Shown here piece after piece: positions 1-7,226 of a DNA stretch of 7,226 nt; the first letter of the stretch is position 1, and each line of letters starts with the position of its first letter. The notes beneath the pieces were generated by a model. It did not search any database. It worked only from the letters and a program-made list of their open reading frames with translations, and was not told the DNA's origin. The position numbers were made by a program, and so were the translations under genes. The stretch is from positions 1 to 7,226 of IMG/VR virus record IMGVR_UViG_2579778842_000006. One strand, given 5' to 3'. The stretch comes from a virus (taxonomy: Duplodnaviria; Heunggongvirae; Uroviricota; Caudoviricetes).

Positions 1-232
1 AACCATAAGGCACTAACAGCCAGTGCGCCTGAAGGAAATGCAATAGGGAAATTACCTGTAGTTCCGTTAGTGTCCGCCCCATAAACATTCATCGAAAACA
101 TTTGGACAATATGACCACTTGGTAACTGAAACCAGTTTTTGCCAGATGGAAATGCAGACATATCTGGTATCTGATTTTCCCCTGTTCCCACGTTCCGTTT
201 TGCCGCTTCTCCCAAACCAACGTTTTTATGCA
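1..232 (-). CDS. Tail-fibre variable C-terminal cassette B, partial: runs off the left edge, has no start codon of its own, begins at crossover site 2
   Basis: Minus-strand frame open from 236 to position 1, with TGA at 239..237 just upstream. By hand translation it reads HKNVGLGEAAKRNVGTGENQIPDMSAFPSGKNWFQLPSGHIVQMFSMNVYGADTNGTTGNFPIAFPSGALAVSALW. The first residues (KNVGLGE) are encoded by the 26-bp crossover site, as in cassette A. First in-frame ATG is only at 161..159 and has no Shine-Dalgarno. Not in the supplied ORF track because it is open-ended. Confidence 0.45.
207..232. other. Hin/Gin/Cin/Pin-family crossover site 2 (TTCTCCCAAACC-AA-CGTTTTTATGCA), same orientation as site 1
   Basis: 26 bp with 12-bp half-sites flanking an AA core; the left half-site ends in the AAACC motif typical of hix/gix/cix sites (recalled from memory). 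Identical to site 1 at 21 of 26 positions, including an 18-bp perfect block (211..228 = 688..705). Overlaps the stop codon of cassette A and encodes the first residues of cassette B. Confidence 0.6.
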
Positions 233-744
233 GCTCTCACAATAAAGTTGAATGCAATATTGCGCGGTCGTGTTTCGCTCCCGCCTGTGTTACCAATACT
301 CCCTCGTGTATGTAGCGTTGGTGATGGAATCAGGGTTCCGCCTGCACTGGTACCATCCAGTCCCTTGCCCTGTGTATATGCTCTTCTGAAGATTGCCGCC
401 AGTTCCCATTCCTCTTTTGAGTCATACCCATCGTTGGCGACAACAGGATGACGGTGCTTTTCCAGCATTCCGGCCTGAATACTCAATAAAACACGTCCAG
501 CATCAATACCGCGCCCATCATCCCAGCCACGAATAAATTCACCGCGTAAATCAGGCAGTTTTCCTGACGGGTACGCTGTGGCTAGTTTGGGATACTTCAG
601 CTTATCAAAGGCAGCACCATTGCATTTTAGCCAGCCCTCTGGAGGTGTGGCTGAAGGCCACGGAACTGTTACACCAACAGGCAACGCAGAACCTTCCCCC
701 AAACCAACGTTTTTAACTTCGAAAACAGAGCTATCTAATAGCAT
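226..744 (-). CDS. Tail-fibre variable C-terminal cassette A (Mu S / P1 S / e14 StfE-type receptor-binding domain); the functional cassette probably begins at crossover site 1 rather than at the ATG
   Basis: 172-aa ORF. Contains VPWPSATPPEGWLKCNGAAFDKLKYPKLATAYPSGKLPDLRGEF and ends NIAFNFIVRAA, matching the conserved C-terminus of Mu/P1/e14-type tail-fibre variable domains (recalled from memory). No Shine-Dalgarno before the ATG at 744 (minus-strand upstream sequence GTTTCTGTTAGTAAAA); in-frame stop at 774..772. The N-terminal KNVGLGEG is encoded by the crossover site. Confidence 0.75.
   Translation of the reverse strand: MLLDSSVFEVKNVGLGEGSALPVGVTVPWPSATPPEGWLKCNGAAFDKLKYPKLATAYPSGKLPDLRGEFIRGWDDGRGIDAGRVLLSIQAGMLEKHRHPVVANDGYDSKEEWELAAIFRRAYTQGKGLDGTSAGGTLIPSPTLHTRGSIGNTGGSETRPRNIAFNFIVRAA
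684..709. other. Hin/Gin/Cin/Pin-family crossover site 1 (TTCCCCCAAACC-AA-CGTTTTTAACTT), invertase-proximal
   Basis: 26 bp with AAACC-AA-CGTTT centre; lies 64 bp upstream of the invertase start and within the 5' end of minus-strand cassette A. This is the position gixR occupies relative to gin and Sv' in phage Mu (established knowledge). Confidence 0.6.
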
Positions 745-772: not shown

Positions 773-1372
773 ATGCAAATTGGCTATATTCGCGTATCAA
801 CAAATGACCAGAACACGGATTTGCAACGCAATGCGCTCAATAGCGCAGGATGTGAACTGATTTTTGAAGATAAAATCAGCGGAACAAAATCAGCCAGACC
901 GGGATTGAAAAAACTGCTCAGAACGTTATCAGCGGGGGATACGCTCGTTGTCTGGAAACTGGACAGGCTGGGCAGAAGCATGAAACACCTGATCACACTG
1001 ATTGAGGAATTGCGGAAAAAAGGTGTCAATTTTCGTAGTCTGACGGATTCAATTGATACCAGTACCCCAATGGGACGATTTTTCTTCCACGTGATGGGCG
1101 CCCTGGCTGAAATGGAACGTGAATTAATTGTAGAGCGTACACTGGCCGGACTGGCAGCAGCCCGCGCACAGGGGCGAATTGGTGGGCGTCGCCCGAAACT
1201 GACAAAAGAGCAACATGAGCAAATAGCGAGGCTGATTAAAAACGGCCACGACAGAAAACAGCTGGCCATAATTTACGACATCGGTATATCGACGATTTAT
1301 CGTTATCACCCTGTAGGTGACACGCAACCCGGAGGAATAATTGAGAATACTCAGGAAACAAAAAACCGCTAA
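773..1372 (+). CDS. pin: Serine DNA invertase, Hin/Gin/Cin/Pin family (small serine recombinase with C-terminal HTH)
   Basis: Translation from ATG 773 begins MQIGYIRVSTNDQNTDLQRNAL, with the catalytic Ser in the YIRVSTNDQ motif, then GDTLVVWKLDRLGRS and SLTDSIDTSTPMGRFFFHVMGALAEMERELIVERT, all hallmark invertase blocks. AGGA Shine-Dalgarno at 761..764. About 199 aa, typical size. The supplied ORF (578..1372) starts too far upstream; ATG 764 is an alternative start. Confidence 0.93.
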   Translation: MQIGYIRVSTNDQNTDLQRNALNSAGCELIFEDKISGTKSARPGLKKLLRTLSAGDTLVVWKLDRLGRSMKHLITLIEELRKKGVNFRSLTDSIDTSTPMGRFFFHVMGALAEMERELIVERTLAGLAAARAQGRIGGRRPKLTKEQHEQIARLIKNGHDRKQLAIIYDIGISTIYRYHPVGDTQPGGIIENTQETKNR

Positions 1373-1392
1373 TCTGAACATTAGCGGTTTTT
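1362..1392. terminator. Bidirectional rho-independent terminator between convergent invertase and U
   Basis: Perfect inverted repeat AAAACCGCTAAT (1362..1373) / ATTAGCGGTTTT (1380..1391) around a 6-nt loop CTGAAC. Followed by a T-run on the plus strand (1388..1392) and by TTTTTTGTTT on the minus strand (complement of 1356..1365). Includes the invertase stop codon and lies 10 nt past the U stop. Confidence 0.75.
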
Positions 1393-1400
1393 ACGTTAAA

Positions 1401-1889
1401 TCAGAACACCCCTTTAACTGAGCTGACCACATTGTTAAGGGATGATGTCACCTTATCTTTAAGACCGGACAGCATATCACTGAACGATGAGGATTGCAGG
1501 CGCTCCCGCAAATCCTCATCACAGCGTTCAAGGGTCAGGGAAAACTCTATCTTTTTCGCTTTCCCGTAGCGATCCAGTTCAGAGCGGGTCGTGCTCGTTT
1601 CAGTCAGAACATACATGCCGTAAATCTGCCCGACGCCATCAATCAGAGGCCACGGGCGTCCCGCATACGCCTGCGTGGCCAGCAGCGACAGCGACACTTC
1701 GCCGCCTGTAATCTCAGGATAAAGCACGCCGGAAAGAACGATGCGATCATCACCTGCACCGATATACTGCCAGCTTGCTGAACGGTTAACGCGCTCGTTT
1801 TTCACATGTCGCCAGCTTTTGTTTTGCTGTAACTGCTGATGCGGTAATGTGCGCAACTCAAAAACAAACATGCCGTAGATCATCATCAT
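1401..1889 (-). CDS. U: Tail protein U (P2 gpU family)
   Basis: 162 aa starting MMMIYGMFVFELRTLPHQQLQ, reminiscent of the P2 gpU N-terminus as I recall it; size matches. AAGGAG Shine-Dalgarno overlaps the stop codon of the upstream tape-measure gene. Confidence 0.85.
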   Translation of the reverse strand: MMMIYGMFVFELRTLPHQQLQQNKSWRHVKNERVNRSASWQYIGAGDDRIVLSGVLYPEITGGEVSLSLLATQAYAGRPWPLIDGVGQIYGMYVLTETSTTRSELDRYGKAKKIEFSLTLERCDEDLRERLQSSSFSDMLSGLKDKVTSSLNNVVSSVKGVF

Positions 1890-1900
1890 GGCACGACTCC

Positions 1901-4738
1901 TTACTCTTTATCATAAAAGCTACCACGCCCGGCACGGGTACGCCGCTCCAGTTCTGCCCTGACCATTTCGCCGACCAGTTTCGCCAGTTCGCGGGGATTC
2001 TGCGTAACAACGTTATGCAGATGGACATGAATTTCACCACCAAATTCGGGTGCCGCAGTCTCCCGGCTGCGGGAAGATGCGGAAACGGGCGCAACTGGCG
2101 CACGTGCGGCCTCCACGACCGGACGGGAGCTTGCTGCAACAACAGGGGGCAACACCGGAGATAACGGAGCCGGGACCACGGGTGTGATGTTGATTGCGGA
2201 AGCAGGCTTACTGACCTGCGCAATCTTCCGCTCCTGCCACTCCCCGCGAACAGCAAGCGCACGGGGCAGGTTCTTAAAGACAATATCACCGGGGCCGATA
2301 CGCTTTTTCGTCTCATCAACCAGCTTGCCTGTGTTATCTGCAATTTTGCTGAGCCTGCGCAGCGTGCCAGTGTTGTTGTCCGTGAGCGGCTTGTTGTCTT
2401 TAGGCTTATCGCCTCCGGTCCCTGTTTCCGCAGATTTCGGCGGATTGATTTTTGCCAGGTCCCCCTGAAGCAAAGCAACCTTGTCCTGAAGAATGGCCGC
2501 ACGCTGCGCGTCTTCGATTTTCTTTCTCGCCCTTTCCGCTTCATCTGGAAGGACGCCAAGTTTTTCCAGTATCCATGCCAGCGTATCCAGCAGCATTTTT
2601 GCAGGCGTCAGGACAAGCTGTAACGCACCGCCAAGAACGTTGCCGAACACCTCGCCAGCACTGGTGCATTTATCCAGCGTTTCCTTACTGGATTCCATCG
2701 GTGACAGCAGCGATGTAAACCAGTTAAAGACCTGAATCACGCCATCACGAACTAGTTCGAAAACAGGGCCAAACCGTTCAAAGGTTTCGCGTAACGGGGC
2801 CAGCCGCTCCATAATCCCGCTGAACACCCCGGCAAAAAATGCCCTGATTGGGTCCCAGTATTTCCAGATGAGAGCGGCAGCTCCGGCAAGCGCAGCCACG
2901 ATAAGACCGACCGGGCTGAACAACGCCCCGATAGCGCCTCCAAGTAAAGAGACGGAACCCGCCACCATTCCCCACAGCGCTGGCAGGACCCTGACAGCAT
3001 TCATTGATCCGGTCAGGAGGGAAAAACCAAGACGCAGTTTTGCCAGCGGGCCAGCAAGCACCCCAAGAGCCAGTGACAACGAGCCAACCGTTGCAGTCAT
3101 TGCCAGCAGCGCACCGCCTGCAATCAGTAGCTGGCGCGTCAGTGCCGGATGGGCCTGCGCCAGCTCCGTCACCTTTGAGACCACCCGAGTGAGCCACTGC
3201 GTGACAGAGCGCAGCGGACCGTCAATCAGATCCGCAATGCGGATACGCAGCCCCTCCCATGCACTGCCGAGTGATCTCAGGTCGCCATCAAGGTTATTGG
3301 CCATAACCTTTGCCGTGCGTTCAGCCTCACCGCGTGCGCCTTCAAGTTCTTTTCTCAGCTTGGGCAGAGAACCGTCACCTGCCGCATCAACGAGGGCCAT
3401 AAATGACGTGAAGGCCTCTTCTCCGGCTATGTCCTTAAAGAACGATACCCGGTCAACTTCCCCGTATTTGCGGGTGGCTTTATAAAGGTCGGCCAGCACA
3501 TCCTCCATCGGGCGCATTTTGCCGTTCGCATCAGAGACAGCCACACCAAGCTCTTTCAGCGCCTCTGCTGCCGCCTTTGGCGGTGATGCCAGACGAGCAA
3601 GGCTGGCACGCATTGCCGTCCCGGCATCACTCCCTCTGATACCCATATTCGCCAGCACGCCCGCCATCGCTGCGGCCTGCTCCAGCGATATTCCCAGCTT
3701 ACCCGCCACCGGACCTGCATATTTCATGGTTTCGCCCAGCGCGCGAAGGTCGGTGTTAGTACGGGTAAACGCCGCAGTAAGTGTGTCGCCGACCCGGTCC
3801 ATCTGGTCAGCAGAGAGACCGAACTGCGTCAGGATATTTGAGCCAATATCCGCCGTCTCGCCAAGGTCCATACCGCCAGCCGTTGCCATGCTCAGCACGC
3901 CGGGAAGCGCAGCCTGAATGGCTTCTGGTGTGAAGCCAGCCATAGCAAGAAATGCCTGCCCACTGGCGGCATCACTCGCAGTAAACTGCGTTTCAGAGCC
4001 GAGCTTTAGCGCCTGCTCACGCAGCGCCTTAAACTGCGGGCTGTTCTGGTCAATTCGCGTCAGCGCCTGCACACGGGACATCTCTTTCCCGAATCCGATA
4101 GCGGGCTGCAAAAAACGCCCGGCAGCATAGCCGCCAGCCGCTGCCGCACCAGTTGCCAGCGCACCACCCGTTTTCAGTTTTCCCGCTGTTTCCTGCGCGC
4201 GTGAATACTGCTCACGCGCCCGCGTTACACGCGCAAGCGCCTGTCGTTCGCGTTCAAGCTGGTTGTTGTACTGTTCGGTGCGTCTGATGGCCTGCTGGAT
4301 GGTGTTATCGCTGCCTGTCAGGGAAATACCGTGGCGTTTAAGCTCTCCGCCAAGCTCCCGCATTTTCTGAATTTCCCGCGTGCGCGATTCATTCAGGCGT
4401 TCAAGCCGGGTGCTTAACTGCTGCATCAGCCTTTGTTGTTTTTCGCTGAGCACAGTACCCGTGCGTTGTAACTGATGAAGGGCGTTAAGCTGGCGTCGTG
4501 CTTTCACGATGCCAGCATCCGCTTTACTGACAGCATCGCGGGCGCGCTCAAATGAACGCGCCTGACGCTCGAGATTTTTGATTGCCCCCTGCGTTTGCTG
4601 GATGGAGTCACCAAGCCGCCCCATCAGGCGGCGGGCGTTTTCGGCTGGCCGGGTCAGCCTGTCAACAGCACTGAAGGCGACCCGAATGTCAAGAGTCTTC
4701 ATTGTCTGCATTCCCACTGCGAAGTGCCGCCCGCTCAC
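1901..4738 (-). CDS. T: Tail tape-measure protein (P2 gpT-like); start codon uncertain
   Basis: About 945 aa, Ala/Leu/Gly/Arg-rich with coiled-coil-like segments and hydrophobic Gly/Ala-rich stretches. Sits between the E/E' chaperone pair and U as in P2. The ORF-track start at 4738 is a GTG; in-frame ATGs at 4711 and 4702 are alternatives. Confidence 0.88.
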   Translation of the reverse strand: MSGRHFAVGMQTMKTLDIRVAFSAVDRLTRPAENARRLMGRLGDSIQQTQGAIKNLERQARSFERARDAVSKADAGIVKARRQLNALHQLQRTGTVLSEKQQRLMQQLSTRLERLNESRTREIQKMRELGGELKRHGISLTGSDNTIQQAIRRTEQYNNQLERERQALARVTRAREQYSRAQETAGKLKTGGALATGAAAAGGYAAGRFLQPAIGFGKEMSRVQALTRIDQNSPQFKALREQALKLGSETQFTASDAASGQAFLAMAGFTPEAIQAALPGVLSMATAGGMDLGETADIGSNILTQFGLSADQMDRVGDTLTAAFTRTNTDLRALGETMKYAGPVAGKLGISLEQAAAMAGVLANMGIRGSDAGTAMRASLARLASPPKAAAEALKELGVAVSDANGKMRPMEDVLADLYKATRKYGEVDRVSFFKDIAGEEAFTSFMALVDAAGDGSLPKLRKELEGARGEAERTAKVMANNLDGDLRSLGSAWEGLRIRIADLIDGPLRSVTQWLTRVVSKVTELAQAHPALTRQLLIAGGALLAMTATVGSLSLALGVLAGPLAKLRLGFSLLTGSMNAVRVLPALWGMVAGSVSLLGGAIGALFSPVGLIVAALAGAAALIWKYWDPIRAFFAGVFSGIMERLAPLRETFERFGPVFELVRDGVIQVFNWFTSLLSPMESSKETLDKCTSAGEVFGNVLGGALQLVLTPAKMLLDTLAWILEKLGVLPDEAERARKKIEDAQRAAILQDKVALLQGDLAKINPPKSAETGTGGDKPKDNKPLTDNNTGTLRRLSKIADNTGKLVDETKKRIGPGDIVFKNLPRALAVRGEWQERKIAQVSKPASAINITPVVPAPLSPVLPPVVAASSRPVVEAARAPVAPVSASSRSRETAAPEFGGEIHVHLHNVVTQNPRELAKLVGEMVRAELERRTRAGRGSFYDKE

Positions 4739-5218
4739 GCCAGCTAACCACTTCGCCGGGCGTCATCATGAAGATTTCGGCGGGCGACCAGTTAAAAATA
4801 ACGGCAATATCTGCCACAAAGTCTTCTATGTGCTCAAAGCACACAACCGTGATCAGGCTTCCGTCGCCTGTTCGTTCTTCCCGCCAGAGTCCGCACCGCT
4901 CAAAAAATTTACGGCAACCACACATAACTGAATAAAGTCACGGGATGCCATTTTTTTGATCGTCACTTCATCCAGTCGCGGTGATGTCACGCGTGACAGC
5001 AGCGTAAACATGGATTCCGCTTTCAGATTCAGCACATCAGACAGCGACAAATCTCGCAGAGATCCAGCCTGCTCAATAGCCCCGGTGATCTCCACATACG
5101 TGATTTTTTCGCCGCCTCGCTCAATTGGTTGGGTAAGTTTTACGCCACGCTCACTGGTTTCTTTCACAGTGTCAGCAACTACCGTGTTTTCGGTATCGAT
5201 GTTTTTCGTCTCTTTCAT
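4689..5218 (-). CDS. E: Tail assembly chaperone fusion E+E', made by programmed -1 ribosomal frameshift at 4901..4907
   Basis: Zero-frame ORF 4853..5218 and -1-frame ORF 4689..4925 overlap at the heptamer T-TTT-TTG. The -1 frame continues to a stop at 4691..4689, overlapping the 5' end of T. Predicted fusion is about 176 aa. Confidence 0.7.
4853..5218 (-). CDS. E: Tail assembly chaperone E (P2 gpE family), zero-frame product
   Basis: 121 aa. AAAGGAG Shine-Dalgarno 7 nt before ATG 5218. Lies directly between the tube and tape-measure genes. Ends VVAVNFLSGADSGGKNEQATEA, with the slippery site in the NFL codons. Confidence 0.8.
   Translation of the reverse strand: MKETKNIDTENTVVADTVKETSERGVKLTQPIERGGEKITYVEITGAIEQAGSLRDLSLSDVLNLKAESMFTLLSRVTSPRLDEVTIKKMASRDFIQLCVVAVNFLSGADSGGKNEQATEA
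4901..4907 (-). other. Slippery heptamer T-TTT-TTG for programmed -1 frameshift (E to E')
   Basis: Plus strand reads CAAAAAA at 4901..4907. On the minus strand the zero-frame codons are AAT-TTT-TTG and the -1-frame codons are AAA-TTT-TTT-GAG. This is the classic X-XXY-YYZ arrangement; I recall the same heptamer for P2 E/E' and for lambda G/GT. Confidence 0.7.
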
Positions 5219-5272
5219 CAGGAAACTCCTTTCAGTCAGAGGCGACGCACTGCGCCGCCTGCATATTACTTA

Positions 5273-5785
5273 TCAGCCAAGCCCAAGCGCGGAACGGATA
5301 CGGTCAGGCACAATGTCCTTGCCGTCCTTCCGGTAGATGAAGTTCAGCAGGTCAATCTCCCACAACGGGCGATCGTTAACACTCAGCTTGTAGTAGGTGT
5401 TTTTAATGGCGTAAGTGTGTGATGTGGCTTCGCCCTGTTTGGCTTCCCCCATATCAATTTCCGTCACACGTCCGCGCATTTCGACTTCATACAGGTCGCT
5501 TTCTGCATCGGTGTAGTATTCACCCGCAAAACGCAGCAGCGTGCCGTCAATCGTGCCGCCATACTTAAGGAACAGCTCACGAACTGCGCCCCCCATGACA
5601 AAGCTCGCATCAAGCGCGGAGTCGTCCAGACCGAGATCAATACTTACCGCACCCATCATGCCGCCACCCCGGTAGCTGTCGGTTTTGCGCGTCAGCTTAG
5701 GCAGAGTGACGGACGTCACCTTACCCACTTCGTTTTCACCATCCACAAACAGCGTAAAAAAGCGAAGATGTTTTGGCACAGCCAT
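5273..5785 (-). CDS. FII: Major tail tube protein (P2 gpFII family)
   Basis: 170 aa, matching P2 FII in size and position immediately after the sheath gene. Its ATG (5785..5783) overlaps the sheath TGA stop by one nucleotide (TGATG), indicating translational coupling. Confidence 0.88.
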   Translation of the reverse strand: MAVPKHLRFFTLFVDGENEVGKVTSVTLPKLTRKTDSYRGGGMMGAVSIDLGLDDSALDASFVMGGAVRELFLKYGGTIDGTLLRFAGEYYTDAESDLYEVEMRGRVTEIDMGEAKQGEATSHTYAIKNTYYKLSVNDRPLWEIDLLNFIYRKDGKDIVPDRIRSALGLG

Positions 5786-6969
5786 CAGGCACCTCCCAGC
5801 ACCGCAAATGCGGGTTCAAAGTATTCATCAGTAAACGTCTGGTAAAGCTCCATGTCTTCCAGTGGCGGAACGGGCGTATATTTGTAGCGAATACGCACAC
5901 GCCCCTGACGTAAATCCGTGGTGCTGTTATCCACCACGTCATACCAGCACTCCGCGCCAATCAGTTTCCCGGCAGTCACCAGTGAATCCAGTTTTGCCCT
6001 GATGGCACTGATAACATCCTTCACGTTCGCAGGCGTCAGTGGACTGTCGATGGTTTCAAACTGCGCTTCCGCAATTGAATCAGCCAGCACCTGTGCGGTT
6101 CGGGTATACACCTCAAAGATGTAGGCGTTCGTTTCCGGTGTGCGGTTGCCCCAGAAGCGGAACCCGTTGCGACGAATAATGGTCGTGATTTCTTTGTTGT
6201 TGAGGCTGTTGGCATCACTGTCTTCGGCCTGTAATGACCAGAACACATGCCTCGACATCCCCAGCACATTTTTAACCGGAACGTTGGACAGTGATTTGTG
6301 CCACCCCTGCTCATGGTCAATGTACGCACGAAGGCCGCACGCATAGGCAGGCGCGGGGAACGTTTCGTTTTTGCCACTTTTCGGGTTGTAGGCGATGAAG
6401 TCCGGCCATAAGAGCATCACCTCACGTTCGTTGAATTTCTGGCGGTAGGTAATCGCCTCAGCCATCGTGTTACAGCCGTGACATGAGGCATACACAAACG
6501 CGCGCAGTTTACCTGCAATCACGCACAGGGATTTTGTTACTGCCTCCGTGTCCAGCTCCGGCGCTGCCAGAATACGCGGACGGTATCCGATGCTTTCATC
6601 CTGCTCTGCAACAAGCAGCGCATACATCCCCGTATAGCTGCCGTCAGATTCAGAACCACCGATAACCAGTTGATCCTGCGTTTTTCCGTCTTCTTCTTTG
6701 TGTTCAGCCACGCGAACGACGATCACCTTTGTGCTCACCTGGTCTGCGATGGCCTTAAGCGCACGATAAAGCGTTCCCGTTGTCCCGCATTTTCCCAGCA
6801 CGTCATTGACGCGGGTCAGCAGTGTGGGCTTGTTCAGCGGGAACAGCTTCGCGTCCGCATCATCCGCCGTTGCCACGATACCGATAACGCTGGAATCAAC
6901 ATCGTTAATCGCTGTTACCAGGTCGGTATTTTCCGTAACACGGGCACCATGAAAACGAGTTTCACTCAT
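5785..6969 (-). CDS. FI: Contractile tail sheath protein (P2 gpFI family)
   Basis: 394 aa. Contains FPLNKP, KLRAF, WPDF, EQGWHK.LSNV, RRNGFRFWGNRT, YTRTAQV and YKYTPVPPLE, blocks I recognise from P2-type sheath proteins. AAGGGG Shine-Dalgarno upstream of ATG 6969. Confidence 0.9.
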   Translation of the reverse strand: MSETRFHGARVTENTDLVTAINDVDSSVIGIVATADDADAKLFPLNKPTLLTRVNDVLGKCGTTGTLYRALKAIADQVSTKVIVVRVAEHKEEDGKTQDQLVIGGSESDGSYTGMYALLVAEQDESIGYRPRILAAPELDTEAVTKSLCVIAGKLRAFVYASCHGCNTMAEAITYRQKFNEREVMLLWPDFIAYNPKSGKNETFPAPAYACGLRAYIDHEQGWHKSLSNVPVKNVLGMSRHVFWSLQAEDSDANSLNNKEITTIIRRNGFRFWGNRTPETNAYIFEVYTRTAQVLADSIAEAQFETIDSPLTPANVKDVISAIRAKLDSLVTAGKLIGAECWYDVVDNSTTDLRQGRVRIRYKYTPVPPLEDMELYQTFTDEYFEPAFAVLGGA

Positions 6970-7126
6970 AGCTTCAGCCCCTTGTATCCGTTAAATGATT
7001 CGGCAACAATCATCACCCACCACGCGCGCAATCTCACCCCTGCGCCATTCTCCCGCCACGGCGACAACAAAAAGCAGTAACCCCCTCCGCACGCACATGC
7101 GACCATGCCACACAGGGAGGGAGCAG

Positions 7127-7226
7127 ATGACCGACACCACCATGCAATTGCTCAGTCAGGGCACAGACCCCGTGAAAATGCCGGATTTTGATATTCTCGC
7201 GGAGGGTAAAACGCTGTCAGGCGTGG
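7127..7226 (+). CDS. Divergent gene of unknown function, 5' end only (first 33 codons, runs off the right edge)
   Basis: ATG at 7127 preceded by GGGAGGGAG (7115..7123) at good spacing. Frame open to the window end (MTDTTMQLLSQGTDPVKMPDFDILAEGKTLSGV). All three minus-strand frames have stops between 7152 and 7219, so no minus-strand gene reads through here. Confidence 0.45.
   Translation, partial: MTDTTMQLLSQGTDPVKMPDFDILAEGKTLSGV

What the first reader, a model, noticed from the sequence alone, without database searches (positions are those of the whole stretch)
1362..1889. Tail operon ends at U with no gene D, replaced by a terminator and a convergent invertase
In P2 and its relatives the order is FI-FII-E-E'-T-U-D. 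Here U is followed 10 nt later by a strong bidirectional hairpin terminator and then the 3' end of a convergent invertase gene, so D is not in its usual place. This suggests either a mosaic in which a fibre-inversion module was inserted at the end of the tail operon, or a tail gene layout different from canonical P2, for example a tailocin-like cluster.
Basis: partly seen in the sequence, partly recalled or inferred. Interest (0 to 1): 0.55.

Follow-up and report, generated by a model that had tools for sequence, protein, structure and literature searches.

The report
P88-type prophage: inverted tail-gene block
The tail gene D is not missing: it starts at the other end of the same window. This gene order, with the sheath-to-U block flipped relative to phage P2, is the normal layout of phage P88 and its many relatives, so the finding is ordinary.

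Summary
gpU (1401-1889, minus strand) is the last gene of its operon. Eight bases past its stop codon lies a 13-bp-stem hairpin (1361-1392), which also contains the stop codon of a convergent serine invertase (773-1372). No D gene follows U.

D is not lost, however. Its start codon is at 7127 on the plus strand, divergent from FI. The 33 residues in the window are identical to the N-terminus of phage P88 gp51, and gp51 is 49% identical to P2 gpD.

Relative to P2 (H-G / FI-FII-E-E'-T-U-D-ogr), the FI-to-U block is inverted, while D-ogr keeps the orientation of the fibre genes.

This is the standard layout of a known phage group:
- Xuanwuvirus (P88, PhiSM, PhiR44_2) and Senquatrovirus (SEN4).
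- About 40 Enterobacterales prophages found here.
- 1286 of 5426 complete E. coli genomes.

It also occurs in relatives that have no invertase, so the fibre-inversion module did not displace D. The closest relatives carry head, lysis and replication genes, so this is not a tailocin.

One mildly new inference: FI and D appear to share a single Ogr-type activator site, with the same geometry as P2's mapped pP/pO promoter pair.

Verdict: already known, low interest.

The parts
1..228 (-). Partial second tail-fibre C-terminal cassette. It begins at the crossover site and runs off the left end of the window.
   Evidence: Read directly from the sequence: [24 protein letters not shown].... The segment 1-228 is found next to the invertase, or fused to the H gene, in other genomes.
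207..228 (+). Invertase crossover site, copy 1 (TTCTCCCAAACCAACGTTTTTA).
   Evidence: Two matches in the window against 0.00 expected by chance. An inverted third copy lies inside the H gene of the ETEC4085 relative.
226..744 (-). Silent tail-fibre C-terminal cassette with a Collar domain.
   Evidence: Pfam Collar, E=1e-14. The same segment is found in the opposite orientation, inside the fibre gene, in L067 and L068.
694..715 (+). Invertase crossover site, copy 2 (TTCCCCCAAACCAACGTTTTTA).
   Evidence: Rearrangement breakpoints between genomes fall here.
773..1372 (+). Serine DNA invertase of the Gin/Cin/Pin/Hin type, convergent with gpU.
   Evidence: Pfam Resolvase E=2.3e-51 and HTH_7 E=1.5e-12. 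Annotated as DNA invertase in P88 and PhiSM.
1361..1392 (.). Hairpin shared by the two convergent transcription units; a putative bidirectional intrinsic terminator.
   Evidence: 13-bp stem and 6-nt loop. Energy is -15.6 and -18.5 kcal/mol, with z-scores of -4.8 and -5.5. The stem is invariant in P88, PhiSM and ETEC4085, and the loop differs at one base, while the invertase 3' end next to it varies.
1401..1889 (-). gpU, an essential tail protein and the last gene of the FI operon.
   Evidence: Pfam Phage_P2_GpU E=6.4e-39. 46% identical to P2 gpU. PHROG 76, tail protein, E=1e-72.
1901..4702 (-). gpT, the tape measure protein. The start at 4702 follows the relatives' annotation; the ORF is open back to a GTG at 4738.
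   Evidence: Pfam PhageMin_Tail E=4.9e-59. The gene is 933 aa in relatives.
4689..5218 (-). gpE (4853-5218) and the E+E' -1 frameshift product. The slippery T TTT TTG lies at 4907-4901, and the E' frame ends at 4689.
   Evidence: PHROG 103, tail protein, E=3.2e-35 for E. Pfam Phage_P2_GpE E=1.7e-12 for the -1 frame. The heptamer was read from the sequence. The P2 record annotates the same -1 frameshift.
5273..5785 (-). gpFII, the tail tube protein.
   Evidence: Pfam Phage_tube E=7.5e-47.
5785..6969 (-). gpFI, the tail sheath protein and first gene of the operon.
   Evidence: Pfam Phage_sheath_1, Gp18_domIII_N and Phage_sheath_1C.
6970..7126 (.). 157-bp divergent control region between FI and D. 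It holds one Ogr-type dyad at 7049-7066 (TCT-N12-ACA on plus, TGT-N12-AGA on minus). -10-like hexamers start 44 nt from the dyad centre on both sides.
   Evidence: The dyad and both hexamers are conserved across 38 unique loci. They are present in 30/38 (FI side) and 28/38 (D side), against a background of 0.20. The geometry matches the single site annotated for pP/pO in the P2 record.
7127..7226 (+). First 33 codons of gpD, the baseplate hub / late control D family protein.
   Evidence: 33/33 identical to the P88 gp51 N-terminus. gp51 matches Pfam Phage_GPD at E=1.5e-17 and is 49% identical to P2 gpD, E=2e-121. Full-length Phage_GPD genes occupy this position in L064-L069.

Best explanation
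The window is the tail end of a P88-type (Xuanwuvirus-like) P2-family prophage. In this lineage the block pF-FI-FII-E-E'-T-U is inverted relative to P2.

The resulting order is V-W-J-I-H-G [fibre cassettes, invertase] -> terminator <- U-T-E'-E-FII-FI <- control region -> D-ogr.

How it works:
- U is therefore the last gene of its late operon.
- That operon and the convergent fibre/invertase unit both end at one symmetric hairpin (1361-1392). The hairpin most likely terminates transcription in both directions and keeps each unit from reading antisense into the other (inferred).
- D is intact and is transcribed divergently from FI.
- The 157-bp FI-D spacer carries a single dyad-symmetric Ogr-type activator site, with -10-like hexamers 44-49 nt from its centre on both sides.
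- D most likely gets its late expression from a bidirectional Ogr-dependent promoter of the same design as P2's pP/pO pair (inferred, about 0.55).
- The invertase with its cassettes is an optional accessory at the 3' end of the fibre operon. It is not the reason D is elsewhere.
For: Shown:
- All gene identities come from Pfam and PHROGs.
- The D N-terminus at 7127 is 33/33 identical to P88 gp51. gp51 is 49% identical to P2 gpD.
- The window is 93.1% identical to P88 over 779-7226.
- The full layout is visible in P88 and PhiSM, in ETEC4085 and in PhiR44_2, whose depositors labelled GpU..GpFI and then GpD. It is also in SEN4, of a different genus.
- All six contigs that encode the identical U protein show it as well.
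- The canonical order is seen in P2 and in Gegavirus.
- Among 55 genome loci, every informative one whose U is at least 54% identical has D divergent from FI. These span about 20 Enterobacterales genera.
- Outgroups with U at most 46% identical (Halomonas, Acinetobacter, Idiomarina, Chitinimonas) have U followed by D.
- At least 80% of the window is colinear in 1286 of 5426 complete E. coli genomes.
- Other terminator-like hairpins follow U in many clade members that lack an invertase.

Supporting the promoter inference:
- The dyad lies 74-88 nt upstream of the FI start codon across the clade. In P2, the centre of the pF site is 83 nt upstream.
- The conserved columns of the intergenic alignment are the dyad and the two -10 positions.
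- The hexamers start exactly 44 nt from the centre on both sides in most loci.
- The P2 record annotates one activator site (3057-3087) for the divergent pP and pO, with transcription starts 56 and 55 nt from its centre.
- The relative's own P/O spacer has TTCT-N12-ACAACAAAAG, matching the FI-D box.
- An Ogr_Delta gene follows D.
Against: - No transcript data exist. The start sites, Ogr dependence and termination are all inferred.
- The dyad in the window has one mismatch to TGT-N12-ACA (AGA half-site).
- The D-side hexamer GACCAT is a weak -10, matching 3 of 6 positions.
- A start about 55 nt from the centre would leave only about a 14-nt leader before the D start codon.
- The loci compared are phylogenetically related, so the 30/38 and 28/38 counts are not independent events.
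- The Providencia/Morganella subgroup (L032, L035, L038, L050) lacks a good D-side hexamer.
- The window's own flanks were not available. The best public matches are 97.7% identical, not 100%.
Confidence: 0.88

Rival explanations
1. Mosaic by insertion. A Gin/Cin-type fibre-inversion module was inserted at the end of the tail operon and displaced or replaced D.
For: - The invertase module is accessory and variable.
- Megablast homology of invertase-less phages PhiR44_2 and Chuche to the window begins at 1352-1353, the left edge of the hairpin.
- Only about 10 of the clade loci carry an invertase after U.
Against: - Relatives without an invertase gene still end the operon at U and have D upstream of FI. 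Examples are PhiR44_2, SEN4 and most genome loci, where a convergent tail-fibre assembly gene follows U.
- D is intact at 7127.
- PhiR44_2 retains what looks like a remnant of the invertase 3' end before the hairpin. This suggests loss of the invertase there, not gain here.
Confidence: 0.04
2. Tailocin-like or defective cluster. The region would be a headless phage-tail bacteriocin locus with a reduced or reordered gene set.
For: - P2-derived tailocins exist in related bacteria, such as xenorhabdicin, photorhabdicin and pantailocin (PMC13280938).
- The window itself contains only tail and fibre genes.
- Some relatives carry IS insertions or pseudogenes.
Against: - The 97.7%-identical ETEC4085 prophage and P88 carry portal, terminase, scaffold, capsid, holin, endolysin, replication and ogr genes.
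- P88 is inducible and lytic, and PhiSM is an active phage (PMC6456863).
- In the xenorhabdicin locus the variable fibre region lies between the fibre N-terminus and the sheath gene, which is a different layout.
Confidence: 0.04
3. Recent, strain-specific rearrangement or assembly artefact. For example, the resident invertase may have flipped the FI-U block through secondary crossover sites.
For: The invertase is active in nature. The cassettes bounded by the 207-228 and 694-715 sites occur in different orders and orientations in otherwise near-identical prophages.
Against: - The same order is fixed in 1286 E. coli genomes and across about 20 genera, down to 54% U identity.
- No crossover-site-like sequence lies at either junction of the block, even with up to 3 mismatches allowed.
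- No convincing inverted repeats flank the block.
Confidence: 0.02

Closest known systems
Escherichia phage P88 and other Xuanwuvirus (PhiSM, P884B11, 500465-2, PhiR44_2, Chuche)
   Same: The window is 91-94% identical to them in DNA over 779-7226 or 1352-7226. Gene order and orientation are identical: invertase > < U T E' E FII FI, then D >. The hairpin stem is identical and the loop differs at one base.
   Different: The fibre cassettes at 1-778 differ from those of P88, with no megablast match. The invertase 3' end is 12 nt longer than in P88. PhiR44_2 and Chuche lack the invertase.
Salmonella phage SEN4 (Senquatrovirus)
   Same: It has the same inverted FI-U block, with U convergent on the fibre operon. 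D is divergent from FI across a 157-bp spacer that carries a perfect TGT-N12-ACA dyad.
   Different: Its U is only 54% identical. It has no invertase; a tail-fibre assembly gene abuts U.
Phage P2 F operon (FI-FII-E-E'-T-U-D, then ogr)
   Same: It has the same gene set, the same E/E' -1 frameshift heptamer, and an Ogr-type site about 83 nt upstream of FI. D and ogr are adjacent.
   Different: In P2, D overlaps the end of U and is co-transcribed from pF. All of V through D lies on one strand, with fun(Z) between G and FI. Here the FI-U block is flipped and D is a separate divergent unit.
P2 pP/pO divergent late promoters with one shared activator site
   Same: The design is a single dyad midway between two divergent starts, each about 55 nt away. 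The FI-D spacer shows the same geometry and a similar box.
   Different: pP/pO start sites and the activator site are recorded as features in the P2 record. The FI-D version is only predicted, and its D-side -10 is weak.
Gin (Mu) / Cin (P1) / Pin (e14) / Min (p15B) fibre-switching invertase systems
   Same: These use a serine invertase of Resolvase plus HTH_7 architecture at the 3' end of the fibre operon, with about 22-26 bp crossover sites at the constant/variable junction. Alternative fibre C-termini with their own assembly chaperones are swapped in. The resemblance of the site sequence to gix/cix/hix rests on my own knowledge.
   Different: There are at least three crossover sites and two or more silent cassettes. 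That is a multi-segment arrangement closer to Min than to the two-site Gin.

Membership tests
P2-family (Peduoviridae) contractile tail module | Sheath FI, tube FII, chaperone pair E/E' with a -1 frameshift, tape measure T and gpU, in that order on one strand. | tested here: met
   Pfam and PHROG matches for every gene. The slippery T TTT TTG at 4907-4901 is in the correct frame.
P2-family (Peduoviridae) contractile tail module | A gpD (Phage_GPD hub) gene is present. | tested here: met
   The start is at 7127, with 33/33 identity to P88 gp51. Full-length Phage_GPD genes occupy that position in contigs with the identical U.
Canonical P2 FETUD operon | D lies immediately downstream of U, on the same strand and in the same transcript. 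| tested here: not met
   After U come 8 nt, a hairpin and a convergent invertase. D is on the opposite strand, 5.2 kb away.
Xuanwuvirus (P88-like phages) | High nucleotide identity to P88. | tested here: inconclusive
   Identity to P88 is 93.1% over 89% of the 7.2-kb window. Genus assignment needs the whole genome, which is not available.
Xuanwuvirus (P88-like phages) | Gene order H-G-[cassettes]-inv > < U-T-E'-E-FII-FI, then D-ogr >. | tested here: met
   compared with the window map.
R-type tailocin | No head, packaging or replication genes in the element. | not testable with these tools
   The window has no flanks. In the closest relatives, at 97.7% and 93% identity, those genes are present. 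P88 and PhiSM are viable phages.
Gin/Cin/Pin-type fibre-inversion system | A serine invertase with a Resolvase catalytic domain and a C-terminal HTH. | tested here: met
   Resolvase E=2.3e-51 and HTH_7 E=1.5e-12.
Gin/Cin/Pin-type fibre-inversion system | Crossover sites in inverted orientation bracketing the alternative fibre C-termini, with both orientations seen. | tested here: met
   There are two sites in the window and an inverted partner inside the H gene of relatives. Cassettes occur in alternative arrangements, with breakpoints at the sites.
Intrinsic (rho-independent) bidirectional terminator | A stable stem-loop followed by a U-run on both strands. | tested here: met
   13-bp stem, with TTTTT on plus and TTTTTTGTTT on minus. 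Only the inner 8 bp are GC-containing (4 GC pairs).
Intrinsic (rho-independent) bidirectional terminator | Transcripts actually end there. | not testable with these tools
   This needs term-seq or Northern blots.
P2-type Ogr-dependent late promoter | A TGT-N12-ACA dyad centred about 55 nt upstream of the start, a -10-like hexamer, no good -35, and an ogr gene in the element. | tested here: inconclusive
   The dyad has 1 mismatch at 7049-7066. Hexamers lie 44-49 nt from the centre on both sides and are conserved across the clade. ogr follows D in relatives. Start sites are unmapped. The exact pattern alone occurs at chance level in the window.

The most novel reading that the evidence does not exclude
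An ancient inversion of the segment [pF-FI...U] placed the dyad-symmetric Ogr site of pF directly upstream of D. The single site was then co-opted as a second bidirectional late promoter, a copy of the pP/pO design. The end of the fibre operon became a shared bidirectional terminator. That would be a clean example of an operon being split and rewired in one rearrangement because the activator site and the terminator are both symmetric.
Probability: 0.5. Interest if true: 0.3.

Novelty: already known. Interest (0 to 1): 0.12.

Why it matters
It matters little for discovery. The gene order is already present, and in PhiR44_2 explicitly labelled, in deposited genomes of two ICTV genera and in about a quarter of complete E. 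coli genomes.

It is useful for annotation. 'No D after U' in enterobacterial P2-like prophages should not be read as a defective tail cluster or a tailocin, because D is found divergent from FI. Some public records mislabel these genes. In the PhiSM record FI is called 'late control gene D protein' and D is called 'ogr/Delta-like'. The RefSeq ETEC4085 annotation truncates D.

The predicted shared FI/D late promoter is a small, testable addition to P2 late-gene regulation.

Tried and rejected
- An exact TGT-N12-ACA search of the window gave only 2 hits, both inside coding sequence, against 1.74 expected by chance. The real box has one mismatch and was found only by comparative alignment.
- I looked for invertase crossover-site relics at the junctions of the inverted block, to test invertase-mediated inversion. 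There are none, even with 3 mismatches allowed.
- I looked for inverted repeats flanking the FI-U block. Only short pairs of 14-21 nt turned up, none at the two junctions of the block.
- An Rfam scan of the window found no family at gathering score.
- Literature: the P88 paper (PMC5285337) contains none of the terms searched (invert, gene order, synteny, tail sheath, gpD, rearrange). The C. rodentium prophage paper establishes only that P88 and PhiSM are active phages. I found no paper that describes the inversion explicitly. Five papers mention Xuanwuvirus, none on genome organisation.
- I considered a link to xenorhabdicin-type tailocins, because Xenorhabdus and Photorhabdus loci share the layout. 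The xnp1 locus, however, is described with the fibre region next to the sheath gene and without an invertase, so I rejected it as the same arrangement.
- I tried to recover the exact source contig. The identical U protein is listed in 585 blocks of the collection, but the six contigs read are at most 97.7% identical to the window overall.

Full report
**1. What is in the window**

ORF listing and Pfam/PHROG scans give the map below.
- Minus strand, right to left:
  - FI sheath (5785-6969)
  - FII tube (5273-5785)
  - E (4853-5218)
  - the E' frame (4689-4925)
  - T tape measure (1901-4702; the ORF is open back to a GTG at 4738)
  - gpU (1401-1889)
- The -1 slippery heptamer T TTT TTG lies at 4907-4901, in the right frame for E/E'.
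- Plus strand: a serine invertase (773-1372; Resolvase plus HTH_7).
- Minus strand again, left of the invertase: two tail-fibre C-terminal cassettes (226-744, with a Collar domain, and 1-228).
- Right end, plus strand: an ORF that starts at 7127 and runs out of the window.

**2.
- U (Phage_P2_GpU, E=6.4e-39) is 46% identical to P2 gpU. It is the last gene of the minus-strand operon.
- Eight nucleotides past its stop codon is the hairpin at 1361-1392, with a 13-bp stem and a 6-nt loop.
- The hairpin folds at -15.6 kcal/mol on the plus strand and -18.5 on the minus strand. The z-scores are -4.8 and -5.5, and none of 200 shuffles fold as well.
- T-runs follow the stem on both strands. The invertase stop codon (1370-1372) lies inside the left arm.
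- The stem is invariant in P88, PhiSM and an E. coli prophage, and the loop differs at one base. The adjoining invertase 3' end varies.
- No D homologue follows U.

**3. D is not missing**
- The 33 residues encoded from 7127 are 100% identical to the N-terminus of P88 gp51.
- gp51 matches Pfam Phage_GPD. It aligns with P2 gpD over its whole length at 49% identity, E=2e-121.
- The identical U protein is listed in 585 blocks of the public assembly collection. All six contexts read show the same order: Ogr_Delta <- Phage_GPD <- | FI > FII > E > E' > T > U > | <- Resolvase | cassettes | <- TAP <- fibre <- I <- J <- W <- V.

**4. This is the standard layout of a known phage group**
- The window is 93.1% identical to phage P88 (Xuanwuvirus) over 779-7226. 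It is 91-94% identical to a dozen related phage records.
- The same order is present in the annotated genomes of P88 and PhiSM and PhiR44_2. The PhiR44_2 depositors labelled GpV-W-J-I-H-G, then GpU-T-E-FII-FI on the other strand, then GpD.
- A 97.7%-identical ETEC prophage integrated next to serS shows it too.
- SEN4, type species of a different genus (Senquatrovirus) with U 54% identical, has it as well.
- P2 and Gegavirus ST15-OXA48phi14.1 (U 52% identical) have the canonical FI...U-D-ogr order.
- In a scan of one genome per species, every informative locus whose U is at least 54% identical to the window's has D divergent from FI.
  - These come from about 20 Enterobacterales genera: Salmonella, Serratia, Symbiopectobacterium, Enterobacter, Kosakonia, Pantoea, Klebsiella, Edwardsiella, Providencia, Morganella, Photorhabdus, Xenorhabdus, Citrobacter and others.
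  - The distant hits with U at most 46% identical (Halomonas, Acinetobacter, Idiomarina, Chitinimonas) have U-D.
  - By parsimony the inverted block is a derived, old and fixed trait of one enterobacterial clade.
- In complete E. coli genomes, 1286 of 5426 have at least 80% of the window colinear in one place.

**5. The invertase is not the cause**
- Only about ten of the clade loci have an invertase after U, and it is always convergent.
- Elsewhere the convergent neighbour is a tail-fibre assembly gene or cargo, often with a different terminator-like hairpin right after U.
- Homology of the invertase-less phages PhiR44_2 and Chuche to the window begins at 1352-1353, the edge of the hairpin.
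- PhiR44_2 still carries what looks like a remnant of the invertase 3' end before the same hairpin.
- The fibre-inversion module is therefore an optional accessory at the 3' end of the fibre operon.

**6. It is not a tailocin**
- P88 and the ETEC4085 prophage carry portal, terminase, scaffold, capsid, lysis, replication and ogr genes.
- P88 is inducible and lytic, and PhiSM is an active temperate phage (PMC6456863).
- The xenorhabdicin tailocin locus is described with its variable fibre region between the fibre N-terminus and the sheath gene, and without an invertase (PMC13280938). That is a different layout.

**7. How the rearranged unit most likely works (inferred)**

Because D is no longer downstream of pF, it needs its own promoter. 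That promoter can only lie in or near the 157-bp FI-D spacer (6970-7126).
- An alignment of this spacer from 21 diverged loci conserves little except three elements:
  - a GTTGTC...(G)ACA/AGA dyad
  - an A..AT element on the FI side
  - a GC-rich block followed by a -10-like element on the D side
- The dyad is TGT-N12-AGA on the minus strand at 7066-7049, with its centre at 7057/7058.
- It lies 74-88 nt upstream of the FI start codon in all loci where it was found. In P2 the centre of the pF site is 83 nt upstream.
- In 38 unique loci, a hexamer of the form nAnnnT with at least 3 of 6 matches to TATAAT occurs at the expected -10 position, 43-47 nt from the dyad centre.
  - It starts exactly 44 nt from the centre in most loci.
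  - It is present in 30/38 loci on the FI side and 28/38 on the D side, against a background of 0.20.
  - In the window the hexamers are GATGAT (FI side) and GACCAT (D side).
- The P2 RefSeq record annotates exactly this design for its other divergent pair. One activator site (3057-3087) serves pP and pO, with starts at 3016 and 3127, which are 56 and 55 nt from its centre.
- The P/O spacer of the ETEC relative carries TTCT-N12-ACAACAAAAG, matching the FI-D box TTCT-N12-ACAACAAAAAG.
- An Ogr_Delta gene follows D.

I therefore propose a shared, bidirectional Ogr-dependent late promoter for FI...U and D-ogr.

The caveats are these:
- There are no transcript data.
- The dyad has one mismatch.
- The D-side -10 is weak in the window.
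- The D leader would be short, about 14 nt.
- The loci compared are related.
- One subgroup (Providencia/Morganella) lacks a good D-side hexamer.

**8. Rejected alternatives**

A recent invertase-mediated flip or an assembly artefact is excluded for three reasons.
- The layout is phylogenetically deep.
- No crossover-like sites occur at the block junctions.
- No flanking inverted repeats were found.

**9. Verdict**

The missing gene is in the window itself, and the order is the normal one for P88-type and SEN4-type P2-family phages. The finding is already known and of low interest. The only mildly new element is the predicted shared FI/D late promoter.

Noticed in passing
window 207-228 and 694-715; partner site in L003 18398-18415: There are two direct copies of a 22-bp invertase crossover site (TTCNCCCAAACCAACGTTTTTA) in the window, against 0 expected by chance. 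Relatives carry an inverted third copy inside the H fibre gene. This makes a multi-site system with at least two silent cassettes, Min/shufflon-like rather than a simple two-site switch.
   Followed up: partly
window 1-744 compared with L064-L069 11146-13489: Near-identical prophages carry the window's cassettes in different orders and orientations, with breakpoints exactly at the crossover sites. For example, 206-707 is inverted and fused to the fibre gene in L067 and L068, and 1-220 is fused to it in L065. This shows the switch is active in natural populations.
   Followed up: partly
window 4901-4907 (minus strand), E 4853-5218 / E' to 4689: The P2-type -1 frameshift heptamer T TTT TTG is conserved in the right frame for an E+E' fusion. 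E itself has no Pfam hit but matches PHROG 103 (tail protein).
   Followed up: partly
L002 (PhiSM, OR565851.1) 17024-19475; L003 (ETEC4085) 26998-28230: Public annotations of this region contain errors. In the PhiSM record the sheath gene is labelled 'late control gene D protein' and D is labelled 'ogr/Delta-like zinc finger'. In RefSeq ETEC4085, D is called from an internal start (263 aa) although the full ORF is open.
   Followed up: no
L061 (PhiR44_2) 5960-6049: The invertase-less phage PhiR44_2 keeps the same hairpin, preceded by what looks like a remnant of the invertase 3' end. It also has its own separate terminator after G. This suggests secondary loss of the inversion module in that phage.
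   Followed up: no
L005 (NZ_JBQPOM010000071.1, labelled Vagococcus sp. WN89Y): A contig in a genome labelled Vagococcus, a Gram-positive genus, carries this enterobacterial prophage at 94-99% protein identity. It is probably contamination or a mislabelled assembly.
   Followed up: no
window 7021-7030 and 7090-7100; L003 8900-8909; L062 3748-3760: A GC-rich (GCGCGCG-like) block sits just upstream of the predicted -10 in the D-direction, FI-direction and P-direction promoters of these phages. It may be a shared feature of their late promoters. Its significance is unknown.
   Followed up: no
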